Shown here: positions 17,220-22,316 of the stretch, piece after piece | Layout: every line of letters begins with the position of its first letter | Position numbering within the stretch: position 1 is the first letter of the stretch | Source of the DNA: a virus | Length of the DNA stretch: 25,186 nt | Reading direction: 5' to 3' (one strand) | UHGV virus genome: UHGV-1407433 | Program-made: the position numbers and the translations under genes | Notes under the pieces: model-generated | The model's database searches: none | Told to the model about the DNA's origin: nothing | What the model saw: only the letters and a program-made list of their open reading frames with translations

Positions 17220-19141
17220 TATTCATCTCCAGATAATGCCCGCGCGTAATCCGCCAGGGTCTTGTTATTGTTACGGCTGCCTTCTTCCTCCAGCAGGCTG
17301 GCCAGAAGTGAATCAAGATTTAGCTGCCAGCGGGATATGCTTATACGCAGCGCCGCCAGTGCATAAACAAAGCAATCGAGCGCCTCATTTCGTCGTTTTT
17401 TGCTGTCCCAGACGATCTTTTTCTTTCCGTCTACCCATTTTTCCACCTGCTCTTCAGCTGTTAGTTGTTGGGCCTCTGTTAGATCGTAGATTTCTGGGTT
17501 ATTCGGGAAATGAACCGCTCCCGCCAGCGGCTCGTCTCTTTGCGCCACCAGCGTGAAACGGTTATAAATCTGCTCTTTTGCGGTGTCTGTTCCTACCTCT
17601 GTGAGGTAAACACCATTCTTGTTACGCTTGCGTGGCATGTTCGCCACTGGCTTTCCATAAACCGACGCCCCCTTTATAGGGATCACACGAAACAGACCGT
17701 GTTTTTTTGAGCGGTTGTAGACGATGGTGGGATCAATGCCGCCAATATCCCAGCAAGTGCGGGATATAACCATTTCGAGACCGTTCTGGCGCTTATACGT
17801 CCTGTTGATCGCTTCATCAACTCGAGCGAGAGTCGACTCATCATCATGACGACCCATAATGATAATTTTGTCGATAAGCCAGCTTTCCTCTCCCGGCCCC
17901 CATCCCCAAACACGCATTTCGTAACGGTCAAGCTGGGAGTCAATACCCGCTGTCAGATATGCCACTCGCTCCGGCACAGACGCTTCAAAGTGCTCTTTTC
18001 GTTCCGCTAAAACTTCAGCATCGGGTCGTTCACCTATTTTCGGTTCCCACGTTTCGCCCAGGGTCGTGTTAACGAAAGTTTTTCGCTTACCCGTATCACC
18101 TTTTGTTTTTATCCAGTCCTTGACGATCTGCACCCAGGTTGTGAACGGGCTATATGCGGTCCAGATGTGGAATGTAACGCTGTCAGGAGGTTCAATTTCG
18201 GTACCGGATGAAGAAAACCAGTTAAGGCCGTCTCGTGTCCAGATACCTGTTTCATCACAAATATACCTGGCCTCCAGAAATTCCAGCTCCTGTTGTTTAA
18301 TCACACAGGCATTGTGTTCACAGAGGTAGTAAACGCTGGCAGGTTCTCCCGGAGACCATTTGAAGCCAAATGGTGTCTCTTTATCACCGAATTTCAGATA
18401 CTGCTCTTCCCCACAGTGTGGGCATGGAACATGGAACCGAAGAAAATGTTCAGACTCCTTAGCAGCTCTTTCTATCTGGCACGTACCTTTGACTTTCGGT
18501 GTAGATCCGCGAATGGATTTCGGCCATACAGAACCCTCAATACGCTTATCACCCAGAAAGGTGGGAGAACCTTCTTTCTCGATGTCATCATCGAAAGCGG
18601 CGAGCTCGTCGTAGCCAGCCACATCAACTGATTTTTCACGGTAGTTTTTTGCAGCCTTACCGCCCAGGCACCAGAAACCACGACCATTCGAGAAACGCTT
18701 CATGCTCAGCGTATTGTCCCGGTGTTTTTTACCGTACCAGGGAGCAAGCGCCAGCAACGTCGGAATATCACGAATGGTCGGTTCTACATGAGACTTCATG
18801 AAGTTTTCAGCATCACCGTCGGTTGGTAACCATATTAGGGAGTTACGCTGTTTATGTTGGATGAAATATGCGTAAACGCCGAGCAACATTTTTGAGTAGC
18901 CGACACGAGCCGATTTAACGACATTCACCTCGCGAATATAGTCATTACCCATCGCATTCATAATTGCACGCTGAAATGGCAGTGTTTCCCAGCGCCCTTC
19001 CTGGTAGGCAGACTCTTTCGGGAGATAATAATTCTCATCTGCCCATTCAACTGCTGTTTGCGGTTGCGGCCGGTACAGCGAACGTAACCCCGCCCGCGCA
19101 GAGTGCTGCAGCCCCTTAACCTGACTGTTCGATATATTCAC
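17219..19141 (-). CDS. A: Terminase large subunit A
   Basis: ATG at 19141..19139. 640 aa, [65 protein letters not shown]... closely resembles lambda gpA. Overlaps the 3' end of Nu1. Confidence 0.97.
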
Positions 19142-19661
19142 TCAGCAACCCCGGTATCATTTCATCCAGCGCAGCTGCCTTGTTCATGGCCTTAATGATG
19201 TCCTTCTTGAGGAAATCAATATGTCGGTTCTCCAGCTCCGGGAAGCGCCGCTGAACCGACAGAGGTATTCCATCGAGAATGCTGGCGATTTCTCCGGCTA
19301 CCCGCGACAGCACGAACGTGCAGAATGCGGTCTCCACCACTTCAGCGGACTCTTTTGCATTTTTTAATTCCTGAGCGTCAGCCTGAGCTCGCGTAAGTCG
19401 GTGTCGCTCATATTCAATCGTGCCAGGTTGAAGATCGGACTCAGAAGCGATACGGAGATCTTCAACTTCCTTCCGCAACTTTTCATTTTCTATAGCTGCA
19501 TCGCGCGCACTGTACCATTCGATTGCAGCAGCAGATTCAAAGAGAACCTCATTACCTTTGCCACCACCGCGGACAACCGGCATACCTTGCTCCTGCCAGT
19601 TCTGAATCGTTCGGACGCTTACCCCGAAAATTTCGGATAAGCGTTTTTTGTTAACCTCCAT
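19116..19661 (-). CDS. Nu1: Terminase small subunit Nu1
   Basis: ATG at 19661..19659. 181 aa, MEVNKKRLSEIFGVSVRTIQNWQEQGMPVVRGGGKGNEV... near-identical to lambda Nu1. Immediately downstream of cos. Confidence 0.97.
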   Translation of the reverse strand: MEVNKKRLSEIFGVSVRTIQNWQEQGMPVVRGGGKGNEVLFESAAAIEWYSARDAAIENEKLRKEVEDLRIASESDLQPGTIEYERHRLTRAQADAQELKNAKESAEVVETAFCTFVLSRVAGEIASILDGIPLSVQRRFPELENRHIDFLKKDIIKAMNKAAALDEMIPGLLSEYIEQSG

Positions 19662-19949: not shown

Positions 19950-20417
19950 TCATCGCAACAGCGCTGACCATATCGTGCCACCTGGCCGAAGACTCTTCTT
20001 CAGTTCCTCGGACACAACATCTGAGATCGCTTTTACCATTTCAGGGGATAGCTTCACGCCGGTCTTAATTTCGGGACAGATGCCAACATTGATGGCATAG
20101 CCTTTTCGTGGGTCGTTCTCTATCCGGCCAAACTGAATATTTACAGAGCCACCAATATAACCACCAGCAGGAACACCAAAGCGCGTATTCACCAGGTGCT
20201 TAATGGCGAACTCCTGCCCTTCAGCGGTCAGGAAGGTGTAATAATTTTCCTTTTGATACTCCGTCGCGGTATGGCGTGTTTCAGCGAATCCCAGCTCTAG
20301 AAGCTCAGCAGCACCAGATTTGGCTGGCAGATCACCAGACTGAAGCGCGCCACGGAAAAACAGCGCATACAGAACATCCGTCGCCGCGCCGGACAACGTG
20401 ATAATTTTATGACCCAT
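19950..20417 (-). CDS. Hypothetical protein (155 aa), last gene before cos
   Basis: ATG at 20417..20415 with AAGGA SD at about 8 nt. No family recognised from sequence alone. Confidence 0.6.
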   Translation of the reverse strand: MGHKIITLSGAATDVLYALFFRGALQSGDLPAKSGAAELLELGFAETRHTATEYQKENYYTFLTAEGQEFAIKHLVNTRFGVPAGGYIGGSVNIQFGRIENDPRKGYAINVGICPEIKTGVKLSPEMVKAISDVVSEELKKSLRPGGTIWSALLR

Positions 20418-20527
20418 GATTTATTTCCTTTTAGGCGTGAGCCTGTCGCACGGCAAAGCCGCCGAAAGTTAACGGTTTGCCCAGGCTCACAGCTGAAAGA
20501 CTTTCTACGATGTGCGCGTGCGATGCG

Positions 20528-20553
20528 CATAAAAAAGCCGCGTGATGGCGGCT
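20528..20553 (-). terminator. Intrinsic terminator (minus strand)
   Basis: Stem AGCCGC / GCGGCT with 6-nt loop (20536-20553); on the minus strand it is followed by TTTTTTAT. The plus-strand version has only a weak T-tract. Confidence 0.6.
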
Positions 20554-20682
20554 ACTGTTTGAATATCAGGGTGTTGTTTCGTCTTAACCCTGGTTAATGT
20601 AGGCATTCAGCCCGTCGGTGGTGGGACACTGGCGCACTTAATAAAGAGTAATGGCTGATTACCTCAGAATAAGGAATCAAAA

Positions 20683-20943
20683 ATGTCAGAAGGTTTTGGT
20701 TTAAAAGAAAAGGTTGAGCAGTTAGAAAAAGAATTAGCCGTACAAAAAATAGCAAATCAGCTTGCTTTTGGAGCACTAATTAAAGCAGTTAATGAGCTGT
20801 ACCCGAACAAAGATTTATATGATGGGTTGACAAAATTTGTCCAGGAAAAACTTGATCCTGAACGTGTTAAAAACATCCCTAATCTTCACGAGGCCTTTCT
20901 AGAAGCTGCGAAAATACTGAGGACTGACGCATCTCCTGAATAA
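20683..20943 (+). CDS. Hypothetical small helical protein (86 aa), plus-strand moron
   Basis: ATG at 20683 with AAGGA SD 7 nt upstream. AT-rich, charged and helical-looking sequence (MSEGFGLKEKVEQLEKELAVQKIANQL...). Opposite orientation to every other phage gene here. Confidence 0.5.
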   Translation: MSEGFGLKEKVEQLEKELAVQKIANQLAFGALIKAVNELYPNKDLYDGLTKFVQEKLDPERVKNIPNLHEAFLEAAKILRTDASPE

Positions 20944-21037
20944 TTTTATCAACAAAGGCAGTTGTGTCCTCTTGCTTTTCATTCACAATGCATGTGACTG
21001 CCTTTTCTAAAGCTGTAATTCGTTCTTCAAGTGTCAT
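20879..21037 (-). CDS. Hypothetical small acidic protein (52 aa)
   Basis: ATG at 21037..21035 with AGGAG 5-6 nt upstream (the track ORF starts earlier at TTG). MTLEERITALEKAVTCIVNEKQEDTTAFVDKIIQEMRQ... Its 3' end overlaps the 3' end of the plus-strand gene by 65 nt. Confidence 0.45.
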   Translation of the reverse strand: MTLEERITALEKAVTCIVNEKQEDTTAFVDKIIQEMRQSSVFSQLLERPRED

Positions 21038-21090
21038 ACCCACTCCTGTCATTGGCTTCAAAATGATAAACCCCGCATTTGCAAGTCCTA

Positions 21091-21147
21091 TTTATACCCC
21101 GCAGGGGATAAAAACCATATTATCCGCTTGCGGGGATAACCATTATC
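21091..21147. repeat. Composite element of two GATAA-armed palindromes (TTTATACCCC-GCA-GGGGATAAAA and TTATCC-GCTTGC-GGGGATAA) joined by an AACCAT linker
   Basis: Seen directly. Related in sequence and arrangement to the reverse complement of the element at 22947-22997. Confidence 0.7.
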
Positions 21148-21177
21148 AAGCCCACCAGTAGATGGGCTTTGTAATGG

Positions 21178-21435
21178 CTACTTCGCTTTTGCTTCCGCTC
21201 GCTTACGCCGGCGCTCTTCTTTCCTCTCGGCTTTTGCCATGTCCATGAATGCCTGCATGATCGAGTTCCGCATCATGTAGCTAACAAAGTGATGATTGAC
21301 ACAGCCGTTGAGGCGCAGCTGCTCGCCAAACTCATCCACCGAGGCCAATGCTTCCATCATGCCCTTCTCGCCTTTCATGAACTCTGAGAAGTCGCGCCCC
21401 GCTCTGGAGGCGCATTCTATTATTCGGGTGCTCAT
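21178..21435 (-). CDS. Hypothetical protein (85 aa) with basic Lys/Arg/Glu-rich C-terminal tail, translationally coupled to the KilA-N gene
   Basis: ATG at 21435..21433, 2 nt after the TGA of the upstream gene (TGATCATG). C-terminus ...AKAERKEERRRKRAEAKAK. Confidence 0.55.
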   Translation of the reverse strand: MSTRIIECASRAGRDFSEFMKGEKGMMEALASVDEFGEQLRLNGCVNHHFVSYMMRNSIMQAFMDMAKAERKEERRRKRAEAKAK

Positions 21436-21437
21436 GA

Positions 21438-22166
21438 TCAGGCCGCCGCATAGAGCAATTTCATCTGCCCTTTCACCGGGAATGCCGACATGCAACGCGC
21501 TTCGAAATCACGATAATCAGAGCACCCATTGGCAATGCTGGTAACGGCAATGATCTGTCGCTCAACCAATGTCAGCGCGTCAGGTTTAAGGTGCTGATGG
21601 ATTTTGTCTCCCGCAGCCAGCCGTCTTTTAACCTCTGCATATACTTCTGGTGGTAATACCTGGCCATATACCCACTTGGCACTGATCATCCCAAATAGTG
21701 CGGGGCGACGACCTGGTCGATGACGGGGCAGCCCTGACATTTTGAACATCGCAGAATAAAACGGATCGCTAAACCTCTTTTCCCATGGCTGAGATTTATC
21801 CAGAAGGAAAATAGCCTTTATTCTTTCATCGTCGATATGATGAACGGAACCCTGAATGATTGCGTCAATTTGCTCATCACACCAGATCTCAAAATCTACA
21901 GAAAGCCATCGAGCAAATCTGACCGCCAGCTTTGGGTGAAGCCATGTTCCGCCGCCACGGTCTTTGCGAGCGCGGCTGGTTTTTACATATGTGATATTCC
22001 CATATCTACTCTTTAACGCCTCGATGTAACGGACAGTCTCAGGAAGCCTAAGCCACTGAGCCGGCTCCTTGTTGAACTTGTCAGCTGCCGCAGTCGCGTC
22101 AAACCAGCCATCGTCAGAAAAACGCATGGGATGGCCTTCGAAATCAATCGGGATGATATTGGACAT
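21438..22166 (-). CDS. KilA-N domain protein (antirepressor/Bro-like), 242 aa
   Basis: ATG at 22166..22164 with AAAGGTAA upstream (the track ORF starts earlier at GTG). The N-terminus MSNIIPIDFEGHPMRFSDDGWFDATAAADKFNKEPAQWLRLPETVRYIEAL...GGGTWLHPKLAVRFARWLSVDFEIWCDEQIDAI resembles the KilA-N DNA-binding domain of phage antirepressor/Bro proteins. Confidence 0.7.
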   Translation of the reverse strand: MSNIIPIDFEGHPMRFSDDGWFDATAAADKFNKEPAQWLRLPETVRYIEALKSRYGNITYVKTSRARKDRGGGTWLHPKLAVRFARWLSVDFEIWCDEQIDAIIQGSVHHIDDERIKAIFLLDKSQPWEKRFSDPFYSAMFKMSGLPRHRPGRRPALFGMISAKWVYGQVLPPEVYAEVKRRLAAGDKIHQHLKPDALTLVERQIIAVTSIANGCSDYRDFEARCMSAFPVKGQMKLLYAAA

Positions 22167-22316
22167 CGTATTTACCTTTTTGGTGATATGAGCCAGTTCT
22201 CGCAGACATGGACAGCCCAAGAGCGGCACGATGTAAGCCACCGTCCTGTCTCTGTCTCATATCCCGAAAAGCTCTTGGTTGATATGCGCACGAGAATGCG
22301 CGGTTTACTGCGGACA

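What the first reader, a model, noticed from the sequence alone, without database searches (positions are those of the whole stretch)
20528..21037. Convergent, 3'-overlapping pair of small genes with the minus-strand terminator placed beyond the plus-strand gene
The 86-aa plus-strand gene (20683..20943, good SD and ATG) and the 52-aa minus-strand gene (20879..21037, good SD and ATG) overlap by 65 nt at their 3' ends. The only clear terminator for minus-strand transcription (20528-20553) lies beyond the 5' end of the plus-strand gene, so minus transcripts should run fully antisense across it. This could be a cis-antisense regulatory pair resembling a type I toxin-antitoxin arrangement, or one of the two ORFs is not real.
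Basis: seen in the sequence. Interest (0 to 1): 0.45.

Follow-up and report, generated by a model that had tools for sequence, protein, structure and literature searches.

The report
Two-way accessory gene cassette, lambdoid phage
The overlapping gene pair is real and is one copy of a widespread, mobile two-gene insert in the late operon of lambda-like phages; one gene faces backwards behind its own promoter and folded leader, which probably lets the phage switch between the two products in dormancy and in lytic growth, though what the proteins do is unknown.

Summary

The window is an mEp213-like lambdoid phage with every late gene on the minus strand. The pair is a low-GC insert between the lysis genes and cos/terminase.

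Both genes are real:
- Both are kept in six haplotypes.
- Both are kept in relatives where the 86-aa protein is only about 30% identical.
- Synonymous change in the 86-aa gene drops sharply inside the overlap.

The design is already annotated, though not studied, in HK97 (gp22 'moron', gp23 'reverse moron'), HK022 and ES18. Those cassettes share with the window about 165 nt of non-coding DNA. It holds the terminator, a sigma-70-like promoter for the backward gene, and a 5' leader hairpin supported by covariation. This block precedes at least 19 unrelated small genes in phage contigs.

The most likely logic is a 'noncontiguous operon', as shown for phi80 Tai/Ati and staphylococcal Tha/Ith. The 86-aa gene would be expressed in the lysogen. 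Q-antiterminated late transcription would then run antisense over it and make the 52-aa protein.

A type I toxin-antitoxin reading is not supported. Protein functions are unknown.

The parts
20530..20553 (-). T_fwd: intrinsic terminator for minus-strand (late-direction) transcripts. Stem 20536-20541/20548-20553, U-run 20535-20530.
   Evidence: Covariation and strand-specific G-U pairs. A terminator is annotated at the equivalent place in HK97, ES18 and HK639. Present next to the block in 64 of 80 sampled viral contigs.
20564..20592 (.). Inverted repeat / hairpin 2 (CAGGGT 20567-72 / ACCCTG 20587-92) with the conserved ATATCAGG. It spans the -35 and spacer of the predicted promoter. In minus-strand RNA it is a stem-loop just 5' of the terminator.
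   Evidence: The strand of action is not resolved (100 versus 101 of 126 cells paired).
20595..20600 (+). Predicted -10 element (TAATGT) of the promoter of the 86-aa gene (P_rev). Predicted start site near 20607.
   Evidence: T1, A2 and T6 are invariant in 21 of 21 aligned blocks while position 4 takes any base. The same TAnnnT pattern appears in all 12 most frequent upstream variants among 80 further viral contigs (70 of the 80 sites). No experimental start site.
20607..20682 (+). Conserved structured 5' leader of the 86-aa gene. P1 is CAGCC 20608-12 / GGCUG 20653-57. P2 hairpin is 20613-20 / 20627-34. SD AAGGA is at 20671-75.
   Evidence: RNAalifold consensus. P2 is paired in 97.6% of cells, and 4 of its 8 pairs change on both sides. 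Wobble pairs fit only the + strand RNA, 164 versus 148 of 168 cells. P1 is nearly invariant, with one compensatory C-G to U-A. No Rfam family matches.
20683..20943 (+). Reverse-oriented accessory gene, 86 aa, all-helical, function unknown (PHROG 21164). It runs antiparallel to the late operon.
   Evidence: dN/dS is 0.09-0.25. Homologues. Always antiparallel to flanking late genes. Structure models have pLDDT 69.
20879..20943 (.). 65-nt dual-coding 3' overlap of the two genes.
   Evidence: Third codon positions of the 86-aa gene vary at 7 of 21 sites inside the overlap against 53 of 65 outside (Fisher p = 7e-5). A plus-gene wobble base is the second codon position of the minus gene, which follows directly from the sequence.
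20954..21008 (+). Candidate terminator of the 86-aa gene's transcript (T_rev). Arms are 20954-62 / 20997-21005, then UUUCU. It lies inside the 52-aa ORF.
   Evidence: Arms are conserved in all haplotypes, and the 15-nt deletion in L008 falls in the loop. Folding z-scores are -1.1 (window), -4.2 (L008) and -3.0 (L014). Putative terminators are annotated at or just beyond the 3' end of the reverse gene, inside the forward gene, in HK97 and ES18. Weak in the window itself.
20879..21037 (-). Forward (late-direction) small gene, 52 aa, coiled-coil-like (PHROG 28630). SD AGGAG is at 21047-21043.
   Evidence: Open in all haplotypes, with an in-frame 5-codon deletion in L008. Partner ORFs of distant relatives (86-aa protein about 30% identical) share a C-terminal FS-x-L motif, and some share an N-terminal LE-x-R-V-x-ALE motif. 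An MTLEQRVEALE-type start occurs in 33 of 76 cassettes.
21038..21176 (.). Flanking sub-module shared only by copies that sit between lysis and terminase genes. It ends at hairpin 21150-21172. It is not part of the core cassette.
   Evidence: Alignment. Homology to mEp213 ends at 21176.

Best explanation
The feature is a self-contained, horizontally mobile 'forward plus reverse moron' cassette, about 520 bp (20530 to about 21050), inserted in the Q-dependent late operon of an mEp213-like lambdoid phage.

Shown by sequence comparison:
- The cassette moves as a unit between different late-operon positions.
- Both small genes are conserved coding genes, locked together by a dual-coding 3' overlap.
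- The 86-aa gene always points against the late operon.
- It sits behind a roughly 165-nt non-coding block that is shared with cassettes carrying unrelated genes.
- That block holds a late-direction terminator, a -10 element with the invariant TAnnnT signature, and a 5' leader hairpin supported by covariation.

Inferred expression logic:
- In the lysogen the late operon is silent. The 86-aa gene is transcribed from its own promoter, and its mRNA starts with a stabilising hairpin and ends at a terminator inside the 52-aa ORF.
- After induction, Q-modified RNA polymerase ignores the terminators and reads through the whole cassette. This translates the 52-aa gene. It also silences the 86-aa gene by promoter occlusion, polymerase collision and sense-antisense RNA pairing.
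- The minus-strand terminator stops any non-antiterminated transcript from leaving the cassette into the next late gene.

Inferred by analogy only: the 86-aa protein is a lysogeny-phase effector, for example exclusion or defence, and the co-inherited 52-aa protein is its lytic-phase neutraliser.
For: Phage context and orientation. Low-GC island (35-40% against about 50%).

Mobility:
- The same core sits between the lysis genes and three different terminase types.
- It also sits between tail genes M/L and I/J, always with the 86-aa-type gene antiparallel.

Both genes are real.

Shared control block:
- It is 75-90% identical to HK97, HK022, ES18, HK633, SPN3UB and mEp506.
- Those records annotate a 'moron product', a 'reverse moron product' and terminators in the same layout.
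- The block occurs in 203 of 5426 E. coli genomes and in at least 120 viral contigs.
- It stands in front of 19 unrelated clusters of small ORFs.
- 72 of 76 have a convergent ORF, and 56 of those overlap.

Promoter and leader. Terminator covariation.

The expression logic has been demonstrated experimentally for other gene pairs:
- phi80 taiEcA/atiEcA, in the same hot spot upstream of the packaging genes. TaiEcA was detected in the lysogen, its level fell when Q was expressed, and atiEcA lies in the Q-controlled late operon (PMC11364771).
- S. aureus 80alpha tha/ith, a small overlapping antisense gene (PMC11087260).
Against: - There are no transcript or protein data for this cassette or for any member of its family.
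- The -35 region is poor: TTGTTT with a 15-nt spacer, or TGTTGT with 17.
- The + strand terminator is weak in the window (z = -1.1). A comparable one was found by rule in only 18 of 76 cassettes.
- dN/dS of the non-overlapping part of the 52-aa ORF is high (0.3-0.97). Part of its conservation may come from the embedded terminator.
- Neither protein resembles TaiEcA/AtiEcA, any PADLOC, Pfam or NCBIfam family, or any known fold.
- The MTLEQRVEALE-type N-terminus is shared by forward genes paired with unrelated reverse genes. That argues against a strictly cognate inhibitor.
Confidence: 0.6

Rival explanations
1. Two independent accessory genes that merely share space. Both proteins are real, but they have unrelated functions. 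The 3' overlap is a frozen by-product of compaction. Antisense transcription has no regulatory role beyond the usual silencing of a backward gene.
For: - In the wider cassette class the overlap ranges from -69 to +173 nt, and 16 of 72 pairs do not overlap.
- Forward and reverse genes recombine: the MTLEQRVEALE start is paired with many different reverse genes.
Against: - Within the 86-aa family the partner with the FS-x-L C-terminus is kept in every locus examined, down to about 30% identity.
- In that family the overlap is always present, 32-68 nt.
Confidence: 0.22
2. Only the 86-aa gene encodes a functional protein. The minus-strand ORF is a translated or untranslated spacer. Its apparent conservation comes from the constraint of the overlapping gene and from the embedded + strand terminator.
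For: - PGAP and a 2025 re-annotation do not call it.
- dN/dS is 0.3-0.97 outside the overlap.
- The ALEKA codons coincide with the terminator's 3' arm and U-run.
- In L025 the N-terminal half is unrelated.
Against: - The strong SD and the ATG are conserved.
- There is an in-frame 15-nt deletion.
- The heptad hydrophobic positions are conserved.
- The LE-x-R-V-x-ALE motif is kept with synonymous changes in cassettes too diverged for DNA-level conservation.
- Synonymous change in the 86-aa gene is suppressed inside the overlap (p = 7e-5). This needs a constraint other than the 86-aa protein itself.
Confidence: 0.12
3. Type I toxin-antitoxin-like module. A dedicated minus-strand antisense RNA, ending at the 20530-20553 terminator, represses translation or stability of a toxic + strand product.
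For: - The terminator is preceded by a stem-loop and an AU-rich stretch, an sRNA-like 3' end.
- There is a weak Rfam isrK hit at 20531-20611 (17.6 bits).
- There is a consensus promoter hit at 20970->20943.
Against: - Neither protein is hydrophobic.
- The isrK hit is far below the gathering score of 50, and the genuine Gifsy-1 isrK locus shows no similarity.
- The promoter hit is not conserved, and its variation follows the codons of the 52-aa ORF.
- The cassette sits inside an operon that already supplies antisense transcription.
Confidence: 0.05

Closest known systems
HK97 gp22 ('moron product') / gp23 ('reverse moron product'); HK022 gp22/gp23; ES18 gp24/gp25
   Same: - The layout is identical: a forward small gene, a convergent (usually overlapping) reverse small gene, a conserved non-coding block, a late-direction terminator, and then the next late gene within about 12 nt.
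- The block itself is homologous, 78-85% identical over about 110 nt.
   Different: - The proteins differ. HK97 gp23 shows no similarity. ES18 gp25 and HK022 gp23 give only weak alignments (hhalign E = 0.03 and 0.013).
- The position differs: tail I/J or M/L gaps, against the lysis-terminase gap here.
- I know of no functional study of these pairs, and I could not read Juhala et al. 2000 or Casjens et al. 2005.
phi80 TaiEcA/AtiEcA noncontiguous operon (PMC11364771)
   Same: - A lambdoid phage, in the same hot spot between the lysis genes and cos.
- A backward gene detected in the lysogen interrupts the Q-dependent late operon, which carries a small partner gene.
- Q expression lowers the backward gene's product.
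   Different: - No sequence similarity.
- Tai is 204 aa.
- The phi80 pair is divergent, with a 20-nt 5' overlap, and the small gene lies downstream of the backward gene. Here the pair is convergent with a 3' overlap.
- phi80 lacks the conserved leader block at that gene.
S. aureus 80alpha Tha / Ith (PMC11087260)
   Same: [quoted passage not shown] The two mutually exclusive transcription states are tied to the phage life cycle.
   Different: - A Gram-positive phage, located in the lysogeny module.
- The small gene is the backward one and has its own constitutive promoter.
- The proteins are unrelated.
Lambda bor, a backward moron between Rz and cos (from my own knowledge)
   Same: A backward, lysogen-expressed accessory gene in the same hot spot.
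   Different: A single lipoprotein gene, with no overlapping partner and no shared leader block.
Type I toxin-antitoxin systems (hok/sok, ldr/rdl)
   Same: Overlapping sense and antisense transcription of a small ORF.
   Different: - No hydrophobic toxin.
- No dedicated antisense sRNA gene.
- The antisense strand itself encodes a conserved protein.

Membership tests
Moron (definition as given in PMC3594210) | Extra DNA between otherwise adjacent, conserved phage genes, absent from related phages | tested here: met
   The same core is found in lysis-terminase, M/L and I/J gaps of otherwise different phages. The window's own tail genes are contiguous.
Moron (definition as given in PMC3594210) | Base composition differs from that of the surrounding genes | tested here: met
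   GC is 0.355-0.405 at 20600-21099, against 0.48-0.575 in the flanks.
Moron (definition as given in PMC3594210) | Own promoter | tested here: inconclusive
   A -10 with invariant TAnnnT is present in 21 of 21 blocks and in all 12 most frequent variants among 80 further sites. The -35 is poor, and there are no start-site data.
Moron (definition as given in PMC3594210) | Own terminator | tested here: inconclusive
   The candidate at 20954-21008 is conserved, but it is weak in the window (z = -1.1) and stronger in relatives. The well-supported terminator is on the other strand.
Moron (definition as given in PMC3594210) | Expressed from the repressed prophage | not testable with these tools
   No transcript data for this cassette were found.
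HK97-type forward + reverse moron cassette | Convergent small-gene pair inside the late operon, with the reverse gene next to a late-direction terminator | tested here: met
HK97-type forward + reverse moron cassette | Homologous non-coding block (terminator, -10, leader hairpin) upstream of the reverse gene | tested here: met
Tai/Ati defence and counter-defence pair | Sequence homology to TaiEcA and AtiEcA | tested here: not met
   hhalign E = 0.44 and 0.61. No PADLOC hit.
Tai/Ati defence and counter-defence pair | Backward gene interrupting the Q-dependent late operon, which carries the partner | tested here: met
   Orientation relative to Nu1, the lysis genes and, in mEp213, Q and PR'.
Tai/Ati defence and counter-defence pair | Anti-phage activity of the backward gene, and its inhibition by the partner protein | not testable with these tools
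   Needs plaque assays and interaction assays.
Type I toxin-antitoxin | Small hydrophobic, membrane-active toxin peptide | tested here: not met
   Maximum 19-aa Kyte-Doolittle window is 1.15 (86 aa) and 0.45 (52 aa), and both proteins are acidic. Hok and LdrD, with sequences taken from memory, give 2.52 and 1.67.
Type I toxin-antitoxin | Dedicated antisense sRNA with its own conserved promoter | tested here: not met
   The only consensus hit (20970->20943) varies with the codons of the 52-aa ORF. No other minus-strand promoter appeared in a relaxed scan.
IsrK sRNA (Rfam RF01394) | Score at or above the family's gathering threshold | tested here: not met
   17.6 bits against 50.
IsrK sRNA (Rfam RF01394) | Similarity to the genuine Gifsy-1 isrK-orf45-anrP locus | tested here: not met
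   No blastn or blastp similarity.

The most novel reading that the evidence does not exclude
The roughly 165-nt block, often together with the MTLEQRVEALE-type start of the forward gene, may be a portable expression platform for backward accessory genes of lambdoid phages. It comprises the terminator, the promoter and the P1/P2-structured leader. In this reading its leader RNA is an undescribed, shared regulatory element that sets when, or whether, at least 19 unrelated small proteins are made. The conserved flanks would also act as recombination handles that let phages swap the cargo.
Probability: 0.35. Interest if true: 0.65.

Novelty: new member of a known kind. Interest (0 to 1): 0.45.

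Why it matters
Backward genes inside phage late operons were recently shown to be a way for prophages to arm the host against other phages and to disarm themselves on induction (phi80 Tai/Ati, 80alpha Tha/Ith).

This cassette, and the class it belongs to, would add many untested candidate pairs of that kind in E. coli, Salmonella, Enterobacter and Klebsiella phages. Because they share a promoter-leader block, one search pattern can find them and one reporter assay can test their regulation.

For annotation, the result shows that the small forward partner genes are systematically missed. PGAP drops the 52-aa gene, and HK633's 111-aa partner is unannotated.

Tried and rejected
- **IsrK homology.** A weak Rfam hit led me to fetch Gifsy-1 and compare the real isrK-orf45-anrP locus. 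There is no similarity, so I rejected it.
- **Internal antisense promoter at 20970->20943.** It is not conserved, and its variation follows the 52-aa codons.
- **Forward promoter upstream of the 52-aa ORF.** Only poor candidates turned up, such as TTGATA-19-GATAAT at 21149->21119. In tail-located copies the ORF starts 10-20 nt after gene M, so it needs no promoter of its own.
- **Protein function.**
  - Pfam, PHROGs, PADLOC and NCBIfam gave only unknown-function PHROGs.
  - Two AlphaFold models (pLDDT 69; pTM 0.46 and 0.38) show a long N-terminal helix plus short helices.
  - Foldseek against the PDB and BFVD gave nothing with E < 1.
- **Homology to TaiEcA/AtiEcA.** None.
- **Generality of a + strand terminator near the forward gene's start.** A simple rule found one in only 18 of 76 cassettes, so I do not claim it as a class feature.
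- **Published transcript data.** The LF82 and Salmonella prophage transcriptome papers do not report these genes. The ES18 genome paper and the HK97 gp15 paper were not held in the library, and I did not look up the HK97/HK022 genome paper (Juhala et al. 2000).
- **Second copy in the window.** My pattern search mis-specified the loop length, so it is uninformative. The absence of other cassettes rests on the contiguous tail genes.

Full report
**Context.** The window is a lambdoid phage closely related to mEp213 and mEp043. The 20400-21176 stretch is 99.5% identical to both. Every late gene lies on the minus strand: J, I, K, L, M, H and so on through portal, terminase large subunit and Nu1 at 19116-19661, with lysis genes further right. 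The finding therefore lies between the lysis genes and cos/terminase, a classical site for accessory genes. Minus-strand transcription there is transcription of the Q-dependent late operon. In mEp213 the Q gene, a PR'-like promoter and a qut-like site are annotated upstream.

**The observation.**
- mEp213's original annotation calls both genes (gp72, gp71). PGAP and a 2025 re-annotation call only the 86-aa gene.
- Each has a PHROG of unknown function, and neither has a Pfam family.
- The region is a low-GC island, 35-40% against about 50%.

**Are both genes real?** I fetched the DNA of homologues. They give six haplotypes in which the 86-aa protein is 66-99% identical to the window's.

The 86-aa gene:
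- It is under clear purifying selection, with dN/dS of 0.09-0.25.

The 52-aa ORF in the close haplotypes:
- It is open in all six haplotypes and keeps its SD and ATG.
- In L008 it has lost exactly five codons.
- Its own dN/dS outside the overlap is only 0.3-0.97, which is not decisive.

Two further results are decisive.
- The third codon positions of the 86-aa gene vary at 53 of 65 sites outside the overlap but at only 7 of 21 inside it (p = 7e-5). In this antisense register, each wobble base of the plus gene is the second codon base of the minus gene. The drop is therefore what selection on the minus protein predicts.
- A profile search of 1.8 billion representatives found distant relatives of the 86-aa protein at about 30% identity. 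Every locus I could fetch has a convergent minus ORF overlapping the 3' end by 32-68 nt.
  - These ORFs end in a shared FS-x-L motif.
  - Several carry the LE-x-R-V-x-ALE motif seen at the N-terminus of the 52-aa protein.

At that divergence, DNA-level conservation cannot explain the shared motifs.

**Mobility.** The conserved core runs from the terminator (about 20530) to the SD of the 52-aa gene (about 21050).
- It occurs between lysis genes and lambda-type (Nu1/GpA), Terminase_4/TerL and DUF1441/GpA packaging modules.
- It also occurs between tail genes M and L (L008, L022, L025) and between I and J (L030).
- The 86-aa-type gene is always antiparallel to its neighbours.
- In the tail copies the forward ORF starts 10-20 nt after gene M, so it is simply part of the late operon.

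**A known design.** A sensitive DNA search with the non-coding stretch 20395-20640 gave an unexpected result. Its terminator-proximal 110 nt are 78-90% identical to segments of HK97, HK022, ES18, HK633, SPN3UB, vB_SosS_Oslo and mEp506, and 75% identical over the same stretch in mEp506. In those records the segment lies between a small backward gene and the next late gene.
- HK97 labels the pair gp22 'moron product' and gp23 'reverse moron product'. They overlap by 123 nt, and putative terminators are annotated on both strands.
- HK022 has gp22 and gp23.
- ES18 has gp24 and gp25, and assigns the far terminator to gene 24.

Its proteins mostly differ from ours. HK633 gp65 and one E. coli prophage protein do belong to the 86-aa family.

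**Anatomy of the shared block.** I aligned 21 blocks. Reading along the + strand:
- **Terminator hairpin (20536-20553).** Its non-Watson-Crick variants are G-U pairs only in the minus-strand RNA. One stem pair switches between G-C and A-U.
- **Inverted repeat (20567-20592).**
- **A hexamer, TAATGT (20595-20600).** T1, A2 and T6 are invariant, while position 4 takes any base. This is the signature of a sigma-70 -10 element.
- **A leader, about 7 nt downstream.** Its first bases CAGCC (20608-12) pair with the invariant GGCUG (20653-57).
- **An 8-bp hairpin (20613-20634) stacked on that helix.**
  - It is paired in 97.6% of cells.
  - Four of its eight pairs change on both sides.
  - Its wobble pairs fit only the + strand RNA.
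- **The SD and the ATG.**

The hairpin at the very 5' end of the predicted mRNA is what one expects of a stabilising 5' stem-loop. That reading is inference.

No Rfam family matches the leader. The weak isrK hit covers only the terminator and the stem-loop before it, and it is not homology.

**How widespread.** The block is in 203 of 5426 complete E. coli genomes, always in unannotated intergenic DNA. The leader hairpin occurs exactly in at least 120 IMG/VR contigs. In 80 sampled contigs:
- 76 have a small ORF 45-125 nt downstream, and the 75 clustered fall into 19 unrelated clusters.
- 64 have the late-direction terminator beside the block.
- 72 of the 76 have a convergent ORF, and 56 of those overlap.
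- 33 of the 76 forward ORFs begin MTLEQRVEALE-like, although they are joined to different C-termini and different partners.

Contexts include the holin-lysozyme gap, the lysis-terminase gap, the gap between the tape-measure gene and gene M, and the M/L and I/J gaps.

**Mechanism.** No transcript data exist for this cassette. The logic I propose has been shown experimentally for other pairs.
- In phi80, the backward gene taiEcA sits in the same hot spot and its product was detected in the lysogen. Q expression lowers it. The adjacent late-operon gene atiEcA neutralises it (PMC11364771).
- In S. aureus 80alpha, the small overlapping antisense gene ith neutralises Tha. The two transcription states exclude each other (PMC11087260).

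By analogy, I propose the following.
- The 86-aa gene is on in the lysogen.
- After induction, terminator-resistant late transcription crosses it in antisense, occludes its promoter, and produces the 52-aa protein.
- The minus-strand terminator keeps non-antiterminated transcripts from entering the next gene. In this window that gene is another forward accessory gene (19950-20417), whose leader at 20400-20535 is shared with phi80, HK639 and others.

That the two proteins interact is suggested only by their strict co-inheritance and by their coiled-coil-like sequences.

**What it is not.**
- *A type I toxin-antitoxin module.* Both proteins are acidic and hydrophilic. No conserved promoter for a dedicated antisense RNA exists.
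- *A Tai/Ati homologue*.
- *Any catalogued defence protein*.

**Verdict.** The finding is a real, conserved, convergent dual-coding gene pair. It is a new member of a known but barely studied kind of phage accessory cassette. The most interesting by-product is the shared promoter-leader-terminator block, which I did not find described as an RNA or regulatory element.

Noticed in passing
window 20400-20535 and 19950-20417 (-): The 130 nt after the terminator are 95-98% identical to segments of phi80, HK639, mEp237, mEp390 and others. There they precede forward accessory genes annotated 'Fur-regulated protein' or N15 gp59-like, flanked by terminators. The 155-aa gene here shares that family's N-terminal half (PHROGs 16910, 17079). 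This looks like a second, forward-type moron abutting the cassette, with the terminator as the junction.
   Followed up: partly
window 21038-21176: The 7-mer CCCCGCA occurs three times, at 21070-76 and 21096-21102 (direct) and inverted at 21129-35, within small CCCC/GGGG hairpins. This sub-module is shared only by copies in the lysis-terminase gap. It ends at hairpin 21150-21172, right after the 85-aa gene (21178-21435). Function unknown.
   Followed up: no
window 20564-20576: TATCAGGGTGTTG matches the IHF core consensus WATCARNNNNTTR exactly. It lies over the -35 region of the predicted promoter and is kept in roughly two thirds of the 21 aligned blocks. This is a post hoc observation, not tested.
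   Followed up: no
L034 (HK633, NC_019719) 608-943: An unannotated 111-aa forward ORF overlaps gp65, a member of the 86-aa family, by 35 nt and ends in ELFSQLS. Homologous 111-125-aa partners occur in L026 and in several IMG/VR contigs. This suggests the forward partners are systematically under-annotated.
   Followed up: partly
L046-L125 (IMG/VR contigs with the leader hairpin): About 43% of the forward ORFs start with MTLEQRVEALE or a close variant, yet they continue into unrelated sequences and pair with unrelated backward genes. The conserved start may mark the other boundary of the exchangeable cassette.
   Followed up: partly
L015 4504-4974, L016 1500-1970; L026 6578-7301; L029 5775-6406: Genes next to copies of the cassette include a Tad2-like protein (PF11195, anti-Thoeris family), YdaS/YdaT and HicA/HicB pairs. 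This fits a hot spot for defence, anti-defence and toxin-antitoxin cargo.
   Followed up: no
window 21178-22241 (-): Relative to mEp213, where the cassette follows Rz directly, this window carries an extra 85-aa gene (PHROG 875) and a KilA-N domain gene between the lysis genes and the cassette. Homology to mEp213 breaks at 21176.
   Followed up: no
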